Source: Thermoplasmatota archaeon
Lineage (GTDB): Archaea; Thermoplasmatota; JASEFT01
Length of the DNA stretch: 47,815 nucleotides
Assembly: GCA_030018475.1 (NCBI GenBank)
Contig: JASEFT010000002.1
Span: forward strand, 26,037-73,851
Direction: 5' to 3'
Part shown: positions 7,795-27,326 of the stretch, piece after piece
Position numbering within the stretch: position 1 is the stretch's first letter
Layout: each line of letters begins with the position of its first letter
The notes under the pieces: model-generated
The model's database searches: none
Told to the model about the DNA's origin: nothing
The model's input: the letters and a program-made list of their open reading frames with translations, nothing else
Program-made: the position numbers and the translations under genes

Positions 7795-8469
7795 ATGCCG
7801 GAAACAGTAGAAGAACTAACAACGACTTATTCGCGAGCTGAACTAGACGAAATGGCAGAAGAGCTAGGCTTGGTTCCAGAAGACTACCCTAATAAAGCCG
7901 CAATAGCAAAGGCTATTATTGCAGCAAGAAAAGCCAAACCGCCTGCTGTTAAAATACCCCCGAAAGTAGGCAAGAAAGGCGTGTACGCAAAGATAAAGGC
8001 CGCAGAAAAGTTCACTGCAAAAATGGACGCAGACGTAAAGGCACAAATTGGAGAAAACGTAGAAGCAGTCAAAAAGATAGAAACTGGTATTAGGGAAGTC
8101 GGGGGAAAGATAGAAGAAAAAGTTGATGACATTCAGTCAGCTGTAGACACACAGATAAAAGAGAACCAAGCTAAGGTTGCAGAGATAGGCAAAGATATCA
8201 AAGCACAGCAAAGGGAGAACATAGCGGCAGTCAAAAAGATAGAGACTGGCATAAGTGAAGTAACAAAGGCGAACGAAGCAAAAGTCAAGCAAATCCAGGC
8301 AGACATAGGAAAGCTGGTTAAGGAAAATCTAAGCGCAGTCAAAAAGATCAGTGAAGGTATAAAAGAGCAAGCAAGAGAAAACAAAGAGGCAGTTGAAGCG
8401 TTCGAACCAAAGGTTAGGGAATTGCAGACTGCTAACAAGAAATACGTAGACGACTTCTACTATGGCTGA
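7795..8469 (+). CDS. GvpC-like repeat protein (amphipathic coiled-coil repeats; SAP/Rho-N-like N-terminal motif; C-terminal KKYVDDFYYG)
   Basis: It occupies the gvpC position of the A-C-N-O order. There are three repeats of EN(V/I/L)xAVKKI(E/S)(T/E)GI.E. The N-terminus SRAELDEMAEELGLVPEDYPNKAAIAKAIIAA resembles SAP/Rho_N helix-hairpin motifs. An SD AGGAGGT sits 7 nt upstream. Confidence 0.5.
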   Translation: MPETVEELTTTYSRAELDEMAEELGLVPEDYPNKAAIAKAIIAARKAKPPAVKIPPKVGKKGVYAKIKAAEKFTAKMDADVKAQIGENVEAVKKIETGIREVGGKIEEKVDDIQSAVDTQIKENQAKVAEIGKDIKAQQRENIAAVKKIETGISEVTKANEAKVKQIQADIGKLVKENLSAVKKISEGIKEQARENKEAVEAFEPKVRELQTANKKYVDDFYYG

Positions 8470-8500
8470 GCCATAGTATCTCTTTTTTTATTTTATTTTC
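8459..8500 (+). terminator. intrinsic-terminator-like hairpin ACTATGGC-TGA-GCCATAGT followed by T-rich tract
   Basis: Perfect 8-bp stem at 8459-8477 spanning the stop codon, then TCTCTTTTTTTATTTTATTTT. Confidence 0.5.
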
Positions 8501-8523
8501 GGAAAAAAAGAAAAGGGTTTAGA

Positions 8524-8685
8524 ATGACGACTATTGAAGAGATCAAAGCTGGGATTCTGGAAAAAGGTATCGAAAGAGAGATAGGAATCAAAAAAATACG
8601 AGCTGAGCTACAAAAGAAGAGAAAAGAAATAGAAGAAGGCAGAAAGAGATATAGAGCTAAATTTTGTCTAAAAACTAAAAAATAA
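8524..8685 (+). CDS. small K/E-rich ORF (53 aa), unannotated in track
   Basis: MTTIEEIKAGILEKGIEREIGIKKIRAELQKKRKEIEEGRKRYRAKFCLKTKK. It lies between the terminator and the gvpN promoter and contains a half-site GGTATCGAAAG. It is below the 60-aa track cutoff. Confidence 0.2.
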   Translation: MTTIEEIKAGILEKGIEREIGIKKIRAELQKKRKEIEEGRKRYRAKFCLKTKK

Positions 8686-8703
8686 TTTTTATTCCGATTT
8701 ATG

Positions 8704-8733
8704 TATCGAAATTCGAAACGAAAAGTTATAAAT
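8704..8733 (+). promoter_or_regulatory. gvpN1 promoter: inverted repeat TATCGAA-A-TTCGAAA (8704-8718) abutting purine-rich BRE-like CGAAAAG and TATA-like TTATAAAT (8726-8733)
   Basis: The TATA box is ~35-40 nt upstream of the ATG at 8769. The palindrome (one mismatch) directly flanks the BRE/TATA, which suggests an operator. Confidence 0.45.
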
Positions 8734-8768
8734 ACCCTACTACTTAACCTTATTTCGAAGGTGATTAA

Positions 8769-23937: not shown

Positions 23938-24059
23938 CCTATCACCGTCCTATTATATGCTTAGCTCTTATTATATCTTTTCCTTGAGCTATGCTTAAAC
24001 TCTGCAACACGGATTTTCAATGCAAAACTCCTCAAGAATGACTTCGATTGCAGAGTTTA

Positions 24060-26282
24060 CTAAACCCTCCATTCCTCTTTCTCCTTCGGTCTCTCTTCTT
24101 CTACATATTCCGCAAACTCTTTCATTATTTCTTCGTAATGTCTTAGTACTGCAGGCGTCATTGTAGGTTTGACTTTCTTAATAGCTTGGTCAAAATGACG
24201 CAGCTCTACCTTTTTATCTTTTAAAATTTTCTTCAATTCCTTTCTATCCATACCTGGCTTAACAACCTCTCTCAAAGATAACATTACAGCTTCCCTGCAA
24301 ATCGCTTCAAGATCAGCACCCACATAATTTGATGTCTTTTCCGCAAGCTCATCGAGATCAACGTCTTTTGCTAAAGGCTTGCCTTCTAGATGTATTTCTA
24401 ATATCTTCTTTCGTTCTTCTTTACCAGGTGGCGGAATATAGATAAGCCTATCAATTCTACCTGGTCTAAGTAAAGCTTTGTCTATCATATCTGGTCTGTT
24501 ACTGGCGCACAGCACAACAACATCTTTCAGCTCTTCCAAGCCATCAAGTTCGGTCAAGAGCTGGCTGACTACACGCTCGCTAACGTGAGAGTCGAAACTT
24601 ACAGTTCTTGAAGGCGCCATTGAATCTATCTCATCAAAAAATATAATACAAGGCGCAGCTTGACGTGCTTTCCTGAACATCTCTCTCACTCCTCTTTCAG
24701 ATTCCCCAACGAACTTGCTCAGTAGCTCAGGACCTTTAATTGAAATAAAGTTCGCTTCGCTTTCTGTAGCTACTGCTTTTGCAAGCAATGTTTTCCCAGT
24801 ACCTGGAGGGCCGTAAAGCAAAATTCCTTTTGGAGGCTTTGTTTTGAAAGTCTCGAAAACTTCAGGATATTTCAAAGGCCACTCTACAGCTTCAATAAGC
24901 TCTTGTTTAGCCTGCTCTAAGCCTCCTACATCTTTCCATTTAACTTTAGGAGCTTCAATAAAAACCTCGCGCATAGCGCTTGGTGTTACTCCTTTCAATG
25001 CTCCATAGAAATCGTCCATTGTTATTTCTAAAGCTTCTAAAATCTCAGGCGGTATTTCTTCTTCTATGTTTATTTTAGGTAAAATTTTGCGTAGTGCATG
25101 CATTGCAGACTCTTTGCACAAAGCAGCCAAATCAGCGCCTACAAATCCATGAGTTATATCTGCAATTTTATCTAAATCTACCTTTTCATCCAGGGGCATA
25201 CCTCTTGTGTGTATTTGCAAAATTTCTAGCCTGCCGTTTCTATCAGGAATGCCAATTTCTATTTCGCGATCGAATCTACCCCCCCTTCTTAGAGCACTGT
25301 CCAGAAGGTCAGGTTGATTAGTAGCTCCTATAACAACAATTTTCCCTTTCGTCTTCAAGCCATCCATCAAAGCAAGCAACTGCGCTACTACTCTGCGCTC
25401 AACCATGCGTTCGCCAGTCATCTCGCTACGCTTGGGCGCAATCGAATCTAGCTCGTCAATCAATACAATTGAAGGTGGATTGTTCTCAGCTTCTTCGAAT
25501 ATTTCCCTCAGCCTAGCTTCGCTCTCGCCATAATATTTACCTATAATCTCAGGACCTGAAATAATTAAAAAGTTAGCATCAGTTTCGTTTGCTACTGCTT
25601 TTGCAATTAGCGTTTTACCTGTGCCTGGCGGTCCATGCAGCAAAACGCCTTTAGGAGGCTCAACACCTAGCTTTTGGAAGAGCTCTGGATGCTTTAATGG
25701 CAGTTCTACCATTTCTCTAATTAGGCCTACTTCTCTTTTCAAGCCCCCTATATCTTCGTAAGTCACGTAAGTTCTTAGCGCTTCTATAGGCTTTTCACTC
25801 AGCGCAATTTCAGTTTCTGATGTAACGAGAGTTACTCCTGAAGGTTGTGTTGAAGTAACAATAAAAGTTAGTGGCGTGCCTAGTACATCAACTCTGAGCT
25901 GCTGACCTTTAACAACAGGCTGACCTTCTAAAACCTTGCGTAAAAATTCTTCGCCTCTTACTATTCTTACAGGCTGAGCTGGCGCTATACCGAGCTTTTT
26001 CGCTTCCCGTGCCTCTGTCTTTTTAACTTCAACTCTTTCATCTATACTAATACCTGCATTGCTCCTGATATTACCATCTATTCTAATAAGTTCTCTATCA
26101 GCATCTTCGGGATAGCCAGGCCATACAATTGCATAAGCTAAAGATTTGCCTTTTAGCTCAATAATATCGCCGCTCACTAAACCGAGCTTTTTCATTATCT
26201 CGGTATCTATTCTAGCAATACCTCTGCCTGCATCGCGGTGCTTTGCTTCTGCTACCCGTAACGTTACTGGCATCTTTATCAC
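24060..26282 (-). CDS. cdc48: CDC48/VCP-like AAA+ ATPase (N domain + D1 + D2)
   Basis: CDC48 N-domain ([24 protein letters not shown]). Two AAA modules each have a Walker A, GPPGTGKT, plus Walker B hydrophobic-DELD and second-region-of-homology arginines. 740 aa. Confidence 0.95.
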
Positions 26283-26312
26283 ATCCTTTCTAACACGATC
26301 TCCCTTTTATTT

Positions 26313-26612
26313 TCATTGAAAGTAATCAAGAAACGATTGAAAAAAATTATCTCTACCTAAGATATTAAGGCTTGCGGTATATTCTTCTGAAAATGCTATC
26401 TTTGATGTAAACTTATAGTCTTCTACCCTGATTTCAACTTTATTATCCAGTTGTCTAGCGACTTCGAATTTGAAGATAGAAACACTAGAGCCTGAATCTA
26501 CTAATGCAAAAAACTCTTTTTCGATACCCTTATTAATCAGTGTTACTTGGATTATTGGGAAGTGTTTTCCTCTGATAACCAGATAAGGATATTCTATCAT
26601 AAAATATACCAT
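26313..26612 (-). CDS. putative retropepsin-like aspartic protease fold protein
   Basis: 99 aa with ALVDSGSS (D-S/T-G-A/S active-site-like) in an N-terminal beta-rich region. Weak call. Confidence 0.3.
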   Translation of the reverse strand: MVYFMIEYPYLVIRGKHFPIIQVTLINKGIEKEFFALVDSGSSVSIFKFEVARQLDNKVEIRVEDYKFTSKIAFSEEYTASLNILGRDNFFQSFLDYFQ

Positions 26613-26809
26613 TCCTCATCCTTCCTCGGGACTAAAAAGGAGGCTGCTCTAATAGATGGATAGTTCTTTTTACAAACTTCCGCAGCCTTATCTAAAAGTT
26701 TATCGGATGCCAATATCCCTTCTTTCACATTTATAGCTATCCATTTTCCGGAGTGCTTTTCGATTTCTTTTCCATGTTTAGAGATCCATTCCAACTCTTC
26801 TCTACCCAT
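26597..26809 (-). CDS. hypothetical small protein, overlaps downstream partner by 16 nt
   Basis: 70 aa, MGREELEWISKHGKEIEKHSGKWIAI.... It forms a two-gene operon with 26313..26612. Confidence 0.35.
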   Translation of the reverse strand: MGREELEWISKHGKEIEKHSGKWIAINVKEGILASDKLLDKAAEVCKKNYPSIRAASFLVPRKDEEWYIL

Positions 26810-26939
26810 ATAATCACCTATTACTCTCTATATAATTATAATAGTGACTGTTTATAAATATATCGTTGAGTAGAGTCTTAGTTAGTAAACTTACGTTCAG
26901 TCAATCTTGACTATATCTGCCGGGCTCAAAAAAAATCGC

Positions 26940-27326
26940 TTACCCGTAAAATTTTTTAGTATATTTCTCTTTTACTTCTTCAAGCTCTTTAATTGCTTTT
27001 TCTAAAGCTACTTTTTTATCGCTGAGCTTGGCTTGCAGTGCTTTGATCTCAGGTATGAGCTCTTCCTTTTTCTCTGGCGCTTTAGCCTTTAGCTCTCTCA
27101 TACTAGAAGTTATTTCCTGCACTTCTTTTAGCGCTTTCTCCAAAGGCTCCTTTTTCTGGATGAGCTCAACTTCCATTTCTTTAACAGCCTTCAATTTTTC
27201 TTCTACGCTCTCAATACCTGTGATTGGTTTTGTAGTAGTTTTCTCTTTAAATTCTTTGAGCGCTGCTTCAAGCTCGTCTTTTTTCTTTTTTAGCTCTTCT
27301 TCTAACTTTTCTACAGCTTCAGCCAT
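26940..27326 (-). CDS. coiled-coil protein with C-terminal KEKYTKKFYG motif (same family as 7795 and 10614 C-termini)
   Basis: 128 aa, K/E/L heptad-like throughout. The C-terminus matches KK[YF]x(2,3)F[YW]G. Confidence 0.5.
   Translation of the reverse strand: MAEAVEKLEEELKKKKDELEAALKEFKEKTTTKPITGIESVEEKLKAVKEMEVELIQKKEPLEKALKEVQEITSSMRELKAKAPEKKEELIPEIKALQAKLSDKKVALEKAIKELEEVKEKYTKKFYG

What the first reader, a model, noticed from the sequence alone, without database searches (positions are those of the whole stretch)
7795..27326. Family of coiled-coil/repeat proteins sharing a C-terminal KK[YF]xx(x)F[YW]G motif; candidate GvpC-like shell-strengthening or phasin-like proteins
Three otherwise different amphipathic repeat proteins end alike. 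ORF 7795..8469 ends ...NKKYVDDFYYG, ORF 10614..10880 ends ...KKKFTKAFWG, and ORF 26940..27326 (minus) ends ...KEKYTKKFYG. ORF 7795 occupies the gvpC slot after gvpA and has ~33-53-aa repeats, as GvpC does. The shared aromatic C-terminal tag may be a docking motif for the GvpA shell or for a chaperone. The 7795 protein also has a SAP/Rho-N-like N-terminal helix-hairpin.
Basis: seen in the sequence. Interest (0 to 1): 0.55.

Follow-up and report, generated by a model that had tools for sequence, protein, structure and literature searches.

The report
Methanogen-type GvpC-like gas vesicle proteins
The three ORFs are real members of an unannotated family of long amphipathic-helix proteins. The family sits next to gvpA in methanogen-type gas vesicle gene clusters and ends in a conserved aromatic cap (Y-x-K-D-F-Y-Y-G). 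It is most likely the GvpC-type shell-strengthening protein that reviews say these archaea lack.

Summary
ORFs 7795-8469, 10614-10880 (true start probably ATG 10623) and 26940-27326(-) are the only reading frames in the window that end in aromatic-aromatic-Gly, and all three lie in a large archaeal gvp cluster.

- **Conservation:** orthologues keep the tail. Every related locus that contains the gvpA-to-gvpN interval has an ORF in that slot ending [YF][VI]x[DE]FY[YFLV]G.
- **Rarity:** an exhaustive HMMER search of 1.84 billion representatives found only 100 hits. About 75 carry the motif, and all eight look-ups whose contig shows a neighbouring gene lie next to gvpA.
- **Relationships:** ORF7795 and ORF10614 are paralogues (hhalign 97%). 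ORF26940 shares only the last ~33 residues with ORF10614.
- **Repeats:** the unit is 18 residues, not 33. AlphaFold2 predicts one 164-residue helix whose hydrophobic stripe stays in phase at 3.60 residues per turn.
- **The tail:** it is a truncated last repeat in which the stripe residues become Tyr and Phe, ending at the repeat's Gly.
- **Link to known GvpC:** haloarchaeal GvpC ends its repeat region with the same box (FARDFYG or YARAFYG).

No Pfam or NCBIfam family matches. My verdict is a divergent GvpC-like shell scaffold, a new variant of a known kind. Docking by the tail has not been tested.

The parts
7184..7762 (+). Two gvpA copies (7184-7408 and 7538-7762) that encode the major shell protein. 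They lie directly upstream of ORF7795.
   Evidence: Pfam Gas_vesicle, E 2.9e-17. The gap to ORF7795 is 32 nt and contains AAAGGAGG.
7795..8469 (+). ORF7795, 224 aa, in the gvpC slot. It has a small N-terminal three-helix domain (residues 1-47), a disordered linker (50-62), and one continuous amphipathic helix (60-223).
   Evidence: Translation. AlphaFold2 mean pLDDT is 86.5, and above 90 for most of the helix. Orthologues occupy the same slot in L001-L007, L010-L014, L017-L019, L021, L023, L024, L028, L031-L033 and L044.
7969..8001 (+). N-box of ORF7795, G-K-K-G-V-Y-A-K-I-K-A (residues 59-69). This is the conserved start of the long helix. In short paralogues it appears as [ST]VKxKhxxh.
   Evidence: The GKxGVxAK / SVK motif recurs across the family. 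V63 is nearly invariant in the 76-sequence alignment.
8050..8427 (+). Seven 18-residue amphipathic repeat units (residues 86-211), with Asn at unit position 3 in six of the seven units (residues 88, 124, 142, 160, 178, 196; the second unit has Ile106 there). The family consensus is K-E-N-x-x-A-V-x-K-I-x-x-G-V-K-E-L-Q.
   Evidence: Autocorrelation peaks at lags 18, 36 and 54. The consensus comes from 135 anchored units. The hydrophobic moment peaks at 100 degrees, z = 7.5 against shuffles.
8428..8466 (+). C-box unit of ORF7795 (residues 212-224, TANKKYVDDFYYG). It is a truncated eighth repeat (positions 1-13) in which A6 becomes Y, I10 becomes F and positions 11-12 become YY. It ends at the repeat's Gly13.
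   Evidence: The register is read from the spacing of the Asn residues (sequence). C-box position statistics from 92 members: F10 100%, G13 100%, Y6 85%.
10623..10880 (+). ORF10614 (85 aa from ATG 10623, or 88 aa from GTG 10614). It is a short paralogue with an N-box (MPSVKEYTKRL), three 18-residue repeats and a C-box (KFTKAFWG, nt 10857-10877). It lies after gvpO and before the second gvpN.
   Evidence: Orthologues lie after gvpO in L001 3182-3406 (...MFIKEFYG) and L013 2940-3167 (...SFVKEFYG).
26940..27326 (-). ORF26940, 128 aa, a helical protein with C-box KYTKKFYG (nt 26943-26963). It is the more distant third member. In relatives it sits in a gvpF/L-gvpG-Hsp20-...-CDC48 module.
   Evidence: Orthologues P0003-P0006 end KEKYTKKFYG or KEKYEKKFSG, in the contexts of L025-L027. 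hhalign against the ORF10614 family gives 91% over the last 33 columns.
8769..11931 (+). Context genes: gvpN1 (8769-9779), a conserved 125-aa gene (9791-10168), gvpO (10180-10449) and gvpN2 (10894-11931).
   Evidence: Pfam AAA_5 and GvpO. The synteny map was made by tblastn.

Best explanation
ORF7795 is the GvpC equivalent of methanogen-type gas vesicle clusters. ORF10614 is a short paralogue, and ORF26940 is a more distant relative that shares the C-terminal module.

**Proposed mechanism**
1. The gene appears to be co-transcribed with gvpA.
2. The protein is predicted to fold into one straight helix of about 165 residues (about 25 nm), built from 18-residue units of exactly five turns each.
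3. Because of that period, the hydrophobic stripe (A6, V7, I10, V14, L/I17, with conserved N3 and G13) stays on one face along the whole length.
4. I infer that the helix lies with this face on the outside of the GvpA ribs and stiffens the shell, as GvpC does.
5. The shared 'tag' is not a separate peptide. It is the last, truncated repeat, in which the stripe residues are replaced by Tyr and Phe and two more aromatic residues are added. It stops at the repeat's Gly, which acts as a helix C-cap.
6. I infer that this aromatic end-cap, together with the conserved N-box at the other end of the helix, anchors or registers the end of the helix. It would do so either on GvpA or against the next molecule in a head-to-tail belt.

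**Shown:** family membership, synteny, periodicity, predicted helix, conservation of the motif, and its presence in haloarchaeal GvpC.

**Inferred:** location on the vesicle surface, shell strengthening, and what the cap binds.
For: - **Uniqueness and enrichment of the tail:**
- **Unbiased sampling through GvpN relatives:** all 11 loci that hold the gvpA-gvpN interval, fully or in part, have a family member there.
- **Exhaustive HMMER search:** 100 hits in 1.84e9 representatives, of which 75 have the C-box within the last 25 residues. Eight of nine look-ups are adjacent to gvpA; the ninth contig was too short to tell.
- **Predicted structure:** a single helix spanning residues 60-223, pLDDT above 90 for most of it.
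- **Periodicity and amphipathicity:** period 18/36/54. The hydrophobic moment is coherent at 3.60 residues per turn, z = 7.5 for ORF7795 and 7.3 for ORF10614.
- **Repeat consensus and C-box register:**
- **Same box in haloarchaeal GvpC:** four GvpC sequences (p-vac, c-vac, Haloplanus, Halogeometricum) end their repeat region with AFARDFYG or AYARAFYG.
- **Directional similarity to haloarchaeal GvpC:** a haloarchaeal GvpC HMM scores family members above their reversed sequences in 84 of 91 cases, even with the C-box removed from both sides (8.4 against 2.5 bits, p = 2e-15). With Nostoc GvpC the effect is 2.4 against 1.4 bits.
- **Length:** about 25 nm, the same as the length used for Anabaena GvpC (PMC10185304).
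- **Gene signals:** a Shine-Dalgarno site 32 nt after gvpA, and a T-run after the stop codon.
Against: - There is no match to Pfam Gas_vesicle_C or Halo_GVPC, or to any NCBIfam GvpC model.
- Profile-profile probability against haloarchaeal GvpC is only 1.7-10.7%. Homology is therefore suggestive, not established.
- The repeat unit is 18 residues, against 33 and about 32-40 in known GvpCs. In the same test, canonical GvpCs do not show the globally coherent hydrophobic moment.
- ORF26940 is only weakly amphipathic (z = 2.0). It lies away from gvpA, next to chaperone genes, so it may do something else.
- There are no expression, proteomic or binding data.
- In Halobacterium a GvpC-GvpA contact was not detectable by split-GFP (PMC9372576), so even the model system gives no direct template for the contact.
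Confidence: 0.65

Rival explanations
1. The proteins are assembly adaptors rather than shell components. On this view the aromatic tail is a recognition tag for one of the ATPases or chaperones in the cluster (GvpN, CDC48, Hsp70/DnaJ-GvpL, sHsp). Those machines would use the long helices to hold or deliver GvpA during growth.
For: - ORF7795 precedes gvpN1 and ORF10614 precedes gvpN2.
- ORF26940 orthologues sit directly before CDC48 and after Hsp20.
- The cluster is unusually rich in chaperones.
- In Halobacterium, GvpN and GvpO bind GvpC (PMC9372576).
- Hydrophobic-Tyr-X C-termini are a known docking device of AAA+ proteins on the proteasome (my own knowledge, not tested here).
Against: - The Halobacterium GvpN/GvpO site is the zinc-finger domain, residues 329-382, not the FARDFYG box at about residue 250.
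- L001 and L013 have the ORF10614 orthologue but no second gvpN.
- About 11 relatives extend past the Gly, and in haloarchaeal GvpC the box is internal, so a free C-terminus is not needed.
- The tail is in register with the internal repeat, which fits a structural end of the helix better than an appended tag.
Confidence: 0.17
2. The proteins are generic surface-active or stress-type amphipathic helices (phasin-, apolipoprotein- or LEA-like). On this view they merely travel with the cluster, and the tail is nothing more than a helix-capping sequence.
For: - The best Pfam hits are sub-threshold Apolipoprotein and ApoLp-III matches.
- The terminal Gly is a common helix C-cap residue (established knowledge).
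Against: - The association with gvpA is strict in every informative context, and the family is rare elsewhere, with 100 hits in 1.84e9 representatives.
- Four aromatic positions and an acidic position are conserved far beyond what capping needs.
- The same box occurs in haloarchaeal GvpC.
Confidence: 0.08
3. The shared tail is a chance or compositional coincidence among lysine- and glutamate-rich ORFs.
For: The motif is short, and the sequences are low in complexity.
Against: - 26 occurrences were observed against 0.16 expected in 297 kb of six-frame translation.
- The tail is conserved in orthologues at 26-46% identity.
- It is in register with the repeat.
Confidence: 0.01

Closest known systems
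Haloarchaeal GvpC (Pfam PF05465 Halo_GVPC repeat; Halobacterium salinarum p-vac and c-vac)
   Same: - The gene order is the same: gvpA-gvpC-gvpN-gvpO.
- Both are tandem helical repeats carrying a Y-x3-F motif.
- The repeat region ends with the same box: FARDFYG or YARAFYG in haloarchaea, against Y[VI]KDFY(Y)G here.
- There is weak, direction-specific profile similarity.
- One family member (L023) carries Y-x3-F in every repeat, as haloarchaeal GvpC does.
   Different: - No Pfam hit, and hhalign probability is at most 11%.
- Repeats are 18 or 25 residues, against 32 in the Pfam model and 38-40 as reported in PMC9372576.
- The family is lysine-rich and near neutral; haloarchaeal GvpC has a net charge of -52 over its repeat region.
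- The family has no acidic linker and no zinc-finger C-terminal domain.
- Many members have an N-terminal Rho_N/HhH-like mini-domain that haloarchaeal GvpC lacks.
Cyanobacterial GvpC (Pfam PF01304 Gas_vesicle_C, 33-residue repeats)
   Same: - It occupies the slot after gvpA and before gvpN.
- It is a long amphipathic helix about 25 nm long that lies along the GvpA ribs (PMC10185304).
- Nostoc GvpC has a hydrophobic-Phe-Gly near its end...NLSVSIFGTLIR.
   Different: - There is no sequence similarity (reverse-decoy effect only 2.4 against 1.4 bits).
- It has a 33-residue unit spanning four GvpA subunits, against 18 residues here.
- Its binding face is conserved Arg/Leu/Phe (PMC10903477), against A/V/I with Asn and Gly here.
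Exchangeable apolipoproteins, apolipophorin-III and phasins (surface-binding amphipathic helices)
   Same: They share repeat-built amphipathic helices. The best, sub-threshold, Pfam similarities are to these families.
   Different: - Scores are far below the family cut-offs (30 bits against a cut-off of 90).
- Those families use 11- or 22-residue periodicity, not 18.
- This family is found only beside gvpA.
HbYX (hydrophobic-Tyr-X) C-terminal docking motifs of proteasomal AAA+ activators
   Same: The last three residues, F-Y-G or Y-Y-G, fit the hydrophobic-Tyr-X pattern formally. A CDC48 gene is in the cluster.
   Different: - HbYX sits on the ATPase and needs a free C-terminus.
- Here the motif is on helical non-ATPase proteins, tolerates extensions and is Trp in some members.
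- The resemblance comes from my own knowledge and was not tested.

Membership tests
GvpC, functional class (outer-surface gas vesicle scaffold) | The gene lies in a gvp cluster directly downstream of gvpA and upstream of gvpN. | tested here: met
   Met in the window, in all 11 GvpN-sampled loci that contain the interval, and in eight of nine contig look-ups.
GvpC, functional class (outer-surface gas vesicle scaffold) | A long alpha-helical protein made of tandem amphipathic repeats, with repeat number varying between species. | tested here: met
   AlphaFold2 predicts a helix at residues 60-223. Periodicity is and the hydrophobic moment (z = 7.5). Family members range from 47 to 375 aa.
GvpC, functional class (outer-surface gas vesicle scaffold) | The protein is physically present on the outside of purified vesicles and raises the collapse pressure. 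| not testable with these tools
   This needs proteomics and pressure-collapse assays.
Pfam PF01304 Gas_vesicle_C (cyanobacterial GvpC repeat) | A significant match to the 33-residue repeat model. | tested here: not met
   No hit at E <= 0.1 for the three window proteins. The model is not among the families matched by the 76 members. Positive control: Nostoc GvpC scores 160 bits.
Pfam PF05465 Halo_GVPC (haloarchaeal GvpC repeat) | A significant match to the 32-residue repeat model. | tested here: not met
   No hit. Positive controls score 245 and 138 bits. hhalign probability is 1.7-10.7%.
Pfam PF05465 Halo_GVPC (haloarchaeal GvpC repeat) | A Y-x3-F aromatic pair in the repeats, and a [YF]xRxFYG box closing the repeat region. 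| tested here: met
   The box is present in four haloarchaeal GvpC sequences and in 92 family members. This feature is my own observation, not a published family definition.
Rho_N / SAP / HeH helix-extension-helix domains (N-terminus of ORF7795) | A significant sequence or fold match of residues 1-50. | tested here: inconclusive
   Rho_N hits reach E 0.003-0.12, below the cut-off, in 4 of 10 N-termini and 5 of 76 members. A profile search of PDB sequences found nothing relevant. Foldseek gave no hit at E < 4, although the Rho N-domain entries 1a63 and 2a8v have the best TMq, 0.61-0.63. P0051 carries HHH_5 instead.
Phasins / apolipoproteins | A match above the family threshold, and association with lipid or PHA inclusions. 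| tested here: not met
   Apolipoprotein scores 30 bits against a cut-off of 90. The genomic context is exclusively gvp.

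The most novel reading that the evidence does not exclude
An aromatic-Gly end box, paired with a conserved N-box at the other end of the helix, is the junction element that lets GvpC-type helices join head to tail into a continuous belt and sets their register on the GvpA ribs. On this reading the element is ancestral to archaeal GvpC. It would be shared by haloarchaeal GvpC (FARDFYG) and the methanogen family, and perhaps echoed by ...SIFG in cyanobacteria. The short paralogues would be junction or cap-specific pieces: ORF10614, and the 47-aa ORF in L031 that consists of little more than an N-box and a C-box. 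This would supply the unresolved GvpC-GvpC junction and give a portable handle for engineering shell stiffness.
Probability: 0.2. Interest if true: 0.7.

Novelty: new variant of a known kind. Interest (0 to 1): 0.5.

Why it matters
A 2022 review states that methanogen gvp clusters lack gvpC (PMC9501494). A Methanothrix transcriptome paper skips the gene between gvpA and gvpN in its gvp table (PMC10470525). This analysis shows that the slot is always filled by a conserved but unannotated protein with GvpC-like design, and that it shares an end box with haloarchaeal GvpC.

If the protein is a shell scaffold, three things follow:
- It would show that external reinforcement is also present in this archaeal lineage.
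- It would provide a third GvpC design, with a very regular 18-residue, 3.60-residues-per-turn helix.
- It would offer a defined 8-residue element to mutate when asking how GvpC ends are anchored. The cryo-ET study of Anabaena gas vesicles could not resolve the junctions between neighbouring GvpC molecules.

GvpC is also the main handle used to tune the acoustic behaviour of gas vesicles as ultrasound reporters, so new variants have practical interest.

Tried and rejected
- **Word-indexed search with ORF10614:** it found nothing. Orthologues were recovered instead by scanning related loci.
- **Fourth candidate, 13381-13689 (...KLFG):** rejected, because the tail is not conserved.
- **tblastn of ORF7795 against plasmids:** only a chance hit to a chemotaxis receptor, so there is no direct BLAST link to haloarchaeal GvpC.
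- **hhalign against haloarchaeal GvpC:** low probability. I replaced it with a reversed-sequence decoy test, which is directional but does not prove homology. The first run of that test failed on an option conflict and was discarded.
- **Anabaena GvpC sequence recalled from memory:** no PDB chain matched it. I used it only to find an annotated Nostoc gvpC, and nothing rests on the recalled sequence.
- **Bacterial gvpC-slot proteins on Methylocella and Spartinivicinus plasmids:** these are unrelated.
- **N-terminal domain:** a PDB sequence-profile search gave nothing relevant, and Foldseek gave no significant match.
- **Ascertainment bias:** the genome-contig scan used the C-terminal peptide as a search pattern. 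Its five loci cannot count as independent evidence that the motif is conserved; they serve only to name organisms (Methanothrix, Methanotrichaceae, Ca. Methanoperedens, unclassified Methanobacteriota).
- **HbYX-type docking:** considered and set aside, because a free C-terminus is not conserved.
- **Commensurability with GvpA spacing:** 18 residues (27 A) against a GvpA spacing of about 12.4 A, derived from 33 residues per four GvpA, gives no integer match. I draw no conclusion from this.

Full report
**1. What is in the window**

Positions ~7.1-31.8 kb hold a large archaeal-type gas vesicle cluster.
- It begins with two gvpA copies (7184-7408, 7538-7762), ORF7795, gvpN (8769-9779), a conserved 125-aa gene, gvpO (10180-10449), ORF10614 and a second gvpN (10894-11931).
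- Next come basic repeat proteins, gvpJ/M-like genes, two Hsp20 genes, gvpK, gvpF, a GvpL-DnaJ fusion and Hsp70.
- It continues with a GvpA-PH fusion, CDC48 (minus strand), ORF26940 (minus strand), an ArsA-like ATPase, gvpG-like genes and a further gvpF/L.

**2.
- The three translations end as reported.
- Among all six-frame stop-to-stop segments of at least 30 aa in the window, only these three end in aromatic-aromatic-Gly.
- Over 297 kb of window plus related loci, the motif [YF]xxxF[YWS]x?G at a C-terminus occurs 26 times against 0.16 expected.
- A fourth frame ending in ...KLFG (13381-13689) is not conserved in its orthologues and is excluded.
- ORF7795 has AAAGGAGG 32 nt after the gvpA stop and a T-run right after its own stop. 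ORF26940 has the same two features. ORF10614 most likely starts at ATG 10623.

**3. Orthologues keep the tail and the position**
- The word-indexed search gave two relatives of ORF7795 (46% and 38% identity). Both lie between gvpA and gvpN, and both end ...FYYG.
- As an unbiased sample I fetched 16 metagenomic loci through their GvpN and mapped them with the window's proteins.
- Every locus that contains the gvpA-to-gvpN interval has an ORF there ending [YF][VI]x[DE]FY[YFLV]G. These are L010-L014, L017-L019, L021 and L024. L023 ends FRDAFYG.
- ORF10614 has orthologues after gvpO in L001 and L013 that end FIKEFYG and FVKEFYG.
- ORF26940 has four relatives that end KEKYTKKFYG or KEKYEKKFSG (P0004 stops at ...KEKYEKKF). 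The three whose contigs were read lie in gvpF/L-gvpG-Hsp20-...-CDC48 modules.
- A genome scan named hosts: Methanothrix, Methanotrichaceae, Ca. Methanoperedens and unclassified Methanobacteriota MAGs. That scan used the tail itself as a search pattern, so it is not independent evidence for conservation.

**4. Breadth of the family**
- An exhaustive HMMER search used a profile of the core, without the N-terminal domain. It found 100 proteins at E <= 1e-3 among 1.84 billion representatives.
- 75 of them carry the C-box within the last 25 residues. A further handful are near variants or are truncated, and about ten are long unrelated coiled coils.
- About 11 members continue after the Gly with a short hydrophilic tail, for example DFYFGEGKTEGKK.
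- Nine contig look-ups were made. Eight are adjacent to gvpA and one contig was too short to tell.
- Most clusters have one member. The window has three, and L001, L013 and L031 have two. The second member in L031 is a 47-aa ORF that is little more than an N-box and a C-box (MSSVKEKVEAIKQKVKEVQSYIAEFYG).

**5. Anatomy**
- Self-similarity peaks at lags 18, 36 and 54 in the window protein, and at 18, 25 and 43 in relatives. The unit is therefore 18 residues (7+11), sometimes with an extra heptad. It is not 33.
- From 135 anchored units the consensus is K-E-N-x-x-A-V-x-K-I-x-x-G-V-K-E-L-Q.
- On a 100-degree helical wheel, A6, V7, I10, V14 and L17 form one stripe, with N3 at its centre and G13 at its edge.
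- AlphaFold2 predicts a small three-helix N-terminal domain, a disordered linker and one helix from residue 60 to 223, with pLDDT above 90 for most of the helix.
- The hydrophobic moment of the whole helix peaks at exactly 100 degrees (3.60 residues per turn). The z-score is 7.5 for ORF7795 and 7.3 for ORF10614, but only 2.0 for ORF26940.
- In ORF7795 the Asn residues at 88, 124, 142, 160, 178, 196 and 214 fix the register. The last unit, T-A-N-K-K-Y-V-D-D-F-Y-Y-G, is therefore positions 1-13 of a repeat, with A6 changed to Y, I10 to F, and positions 11-12 to YY. It ends at Gly13.
- Across 92 members, F10 and G13 are invariant. Y6 is 85% (the rest are Phe). In the 8-residue form, position 9 is Asp or Glu in 62 of 69 members, position 11 is Tyr in 67 of 69, and position 12 is Tyr or Phe in 66 of 69.
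- A conserved N-box marks the other end of the helix: GKxGVxAK in long members and [ST]VKxKhxxh in short ones.

**6. Relationships among the three window proteins**
- ORF7795 and ORF10614 are paralogues (hhalign 97%, E 2e-11).
- ORF26940 matches ORF10614 over the last 33 columns in register (91%). It does not match ORF7795 (20%).

**7. Comparison with known GvpC**
- No Pfam or NCBIfam family is matched above threshold. Control GvpCs match Halo_GVPC and Gas_vesicle_C strongly.
- Reading Halobacterium GvpC directly shows Y-x3-F pairs in every repeat (YADEF, YGDEF, YRDEF). Its repeat region closes with AFARDFYG, which is followed by the acidic linker and the zinc-finger domain.
- c-vac GvpC, at 41% identity, has AYARAFYG at the same place. 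Haloplanus and Halogeometricum have AFARDFYG.
- The L023 member of the new family carries N-x-x-Y-V-x-x-x-F in each repeat, which makes it look intermediate.
- Profile-profile comparison with haloarchaeal GvpC is weak.
- A haloarchaeal GvpC HMM scores family members above their own reversed sequences in 89 of 92 cases. With the box deleted from both sides the figure is 84 of 91 (8.4 against 2.5 bits, p = 2e-15).
- The same test gives 2.4 against 1.4 bits with Nostoc GvpC, and 2.2 against 0.0 bits with the ORF26940 family body.
- I read this as probable but unproven remote homology with haloarchaeal GvpC.
- Nostoc GvpC ends ...NLSVSIFGTLIR, a looser echo of a hydrophobic-Phe-Gly ending.

**8. 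Mechanism**
- The best-supported reading is a GvpC-type external scaffold. It would be a straight amphipathic helix of about 25 nm lying with its stripe on the GvpA ribs, with an aromatic end-cap and an N-box that anchor or register the ends.
- The length equals that used for Anabaena GvpC. That study could not resolve the junctions between neighbouring GvpC molecules, and a cross-link in it suggests that GvpC termini pack closely or interact head to tail (PMC10185304).
- What the cap binds is inferred, not shown.
- The rival view, a tag for GvpN or a chaperone, has little support. The Halobacterium GvpN/GvpO site is the zinc-finger domain (residues 329-382), not the box. In addition, a free C-terminus is not conserved.

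**9. Literature**
- A 2022 review states that methanogen clusters lack gvpC and writes the M. barkeri cluster as gvpAAA-NOFG-JHKLM (PMC9501494).
- A Methanothrix transcriptome table lists Mthe_0058 (gvpN) and Mthe_0060-0063 (gvpA) but not Mthe_0059 (PMC10470525).
- Six full-text searches found no description of this family. The library does not hold most subscription journals, so earlier mention cannot be excluded.

**10. N-terminal domain**
- Support for a Rho_N/SAP-like fold is weak.
- The domain is absent from about half of the family, and one member has a helix-hairpin-helix module instead. It is an optional accessory domain.

**Verdict**

The finding is real and biologically coherent. It is a divergent GvpC-like family, that is, a new variant of a known kind. 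It is of moderate interest to the gas vesicle field and can be tested directly.

Noticed in passing
window 8524-8685 (+): A 53-aa ORF lies between ORF7795 and gvpN1 (MTTIEEIKAGILEKGIER...YRAKF...). It is conserved at the same place in L001 758-949, so it is probably a real, unannotated small gvp-cluster gene.
   Followed up: partly
window 11963-12778 (+) and 27347-27523 (-): A 271-aa basic protein carries 5-6 copies of a 'TTYSPKHSTVP(D/K)PEF' repeat. Its orthologues are in L001, L012, L013 and L007. A 58-aa lysine-rich ORF upstream of ORF26940 carries the same 'TYS..YST' motif and is conserved as 41-aa genes in L025 and L027. The function of both is unknown.
   Followed up: partly
window 10486-10614 (+): A 42-aa very basic ORF lies directly after gvpO. 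L001 has 42- and 40-aa genes called at the equivalent place.
   Followed up: no
window 14557-20064, 22578-23156, 24060-26282 (-), 27572-29533 (-): The chaperone and ATPase content is unusual for a gvp cluster. It has two Hsp20 genes here plus two more at 395-1687, a GvpL-DnaJ fusion (17120-18160) followed by Hsp70, a GvpA-PH-domain fusion, CDC48, a tandem ArsA/Get3-like ATPase, and two GvpN paralogues.
   Followed up: partly
window 9791-10168 (+) and 21825-22421 (+): A conserved 125-aa gene sits between gvpN and gvpO. It has no Pfam family and is present in nearly all related loci (tblastn). The C-terminal half of ORF 21825-22421 looks like a second copy (…FLKHYKITD…), and L031 has two copies.
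   Followed up: partly
window 8470-8500 and ~8727-8735: A T-run lies immediately after the ORF7795 stop, and a TATA-like TTATAAATA lies about 35 nt before gvpN1. Together they suggest that gvpA-gvpA-ORF7795 is one transcription unit, separate from gvpN-gvpO.
   Followed up: no
L019 7914-10136: The CDC48 of this related cluster ends ...REKPYG, whereas the window's CDC48 ends ...EEWRV. This is probably coincidence.
   Followed up: no
L035 3405-3698 (Spartinivicinus ruber plasmid) and L037 2501-2995 (Nostoc sphaeroides plasmid): The bacterial gvpC-slot proteins end ...RSIWFGYRM and ...SVSIFGTLIR. A hydrophobic-Phe-Gly near the C-terminus may be a wider feature of GvpC-slot proteins.
   Followed up: partly
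window 47129-47791 (-): A transposase-like ORF with a zinc-ribbon motif lies at the window edge. The review cited notes that the M. barkeri gvp cluster is flanked by insertion sequences.
   Followed up: no
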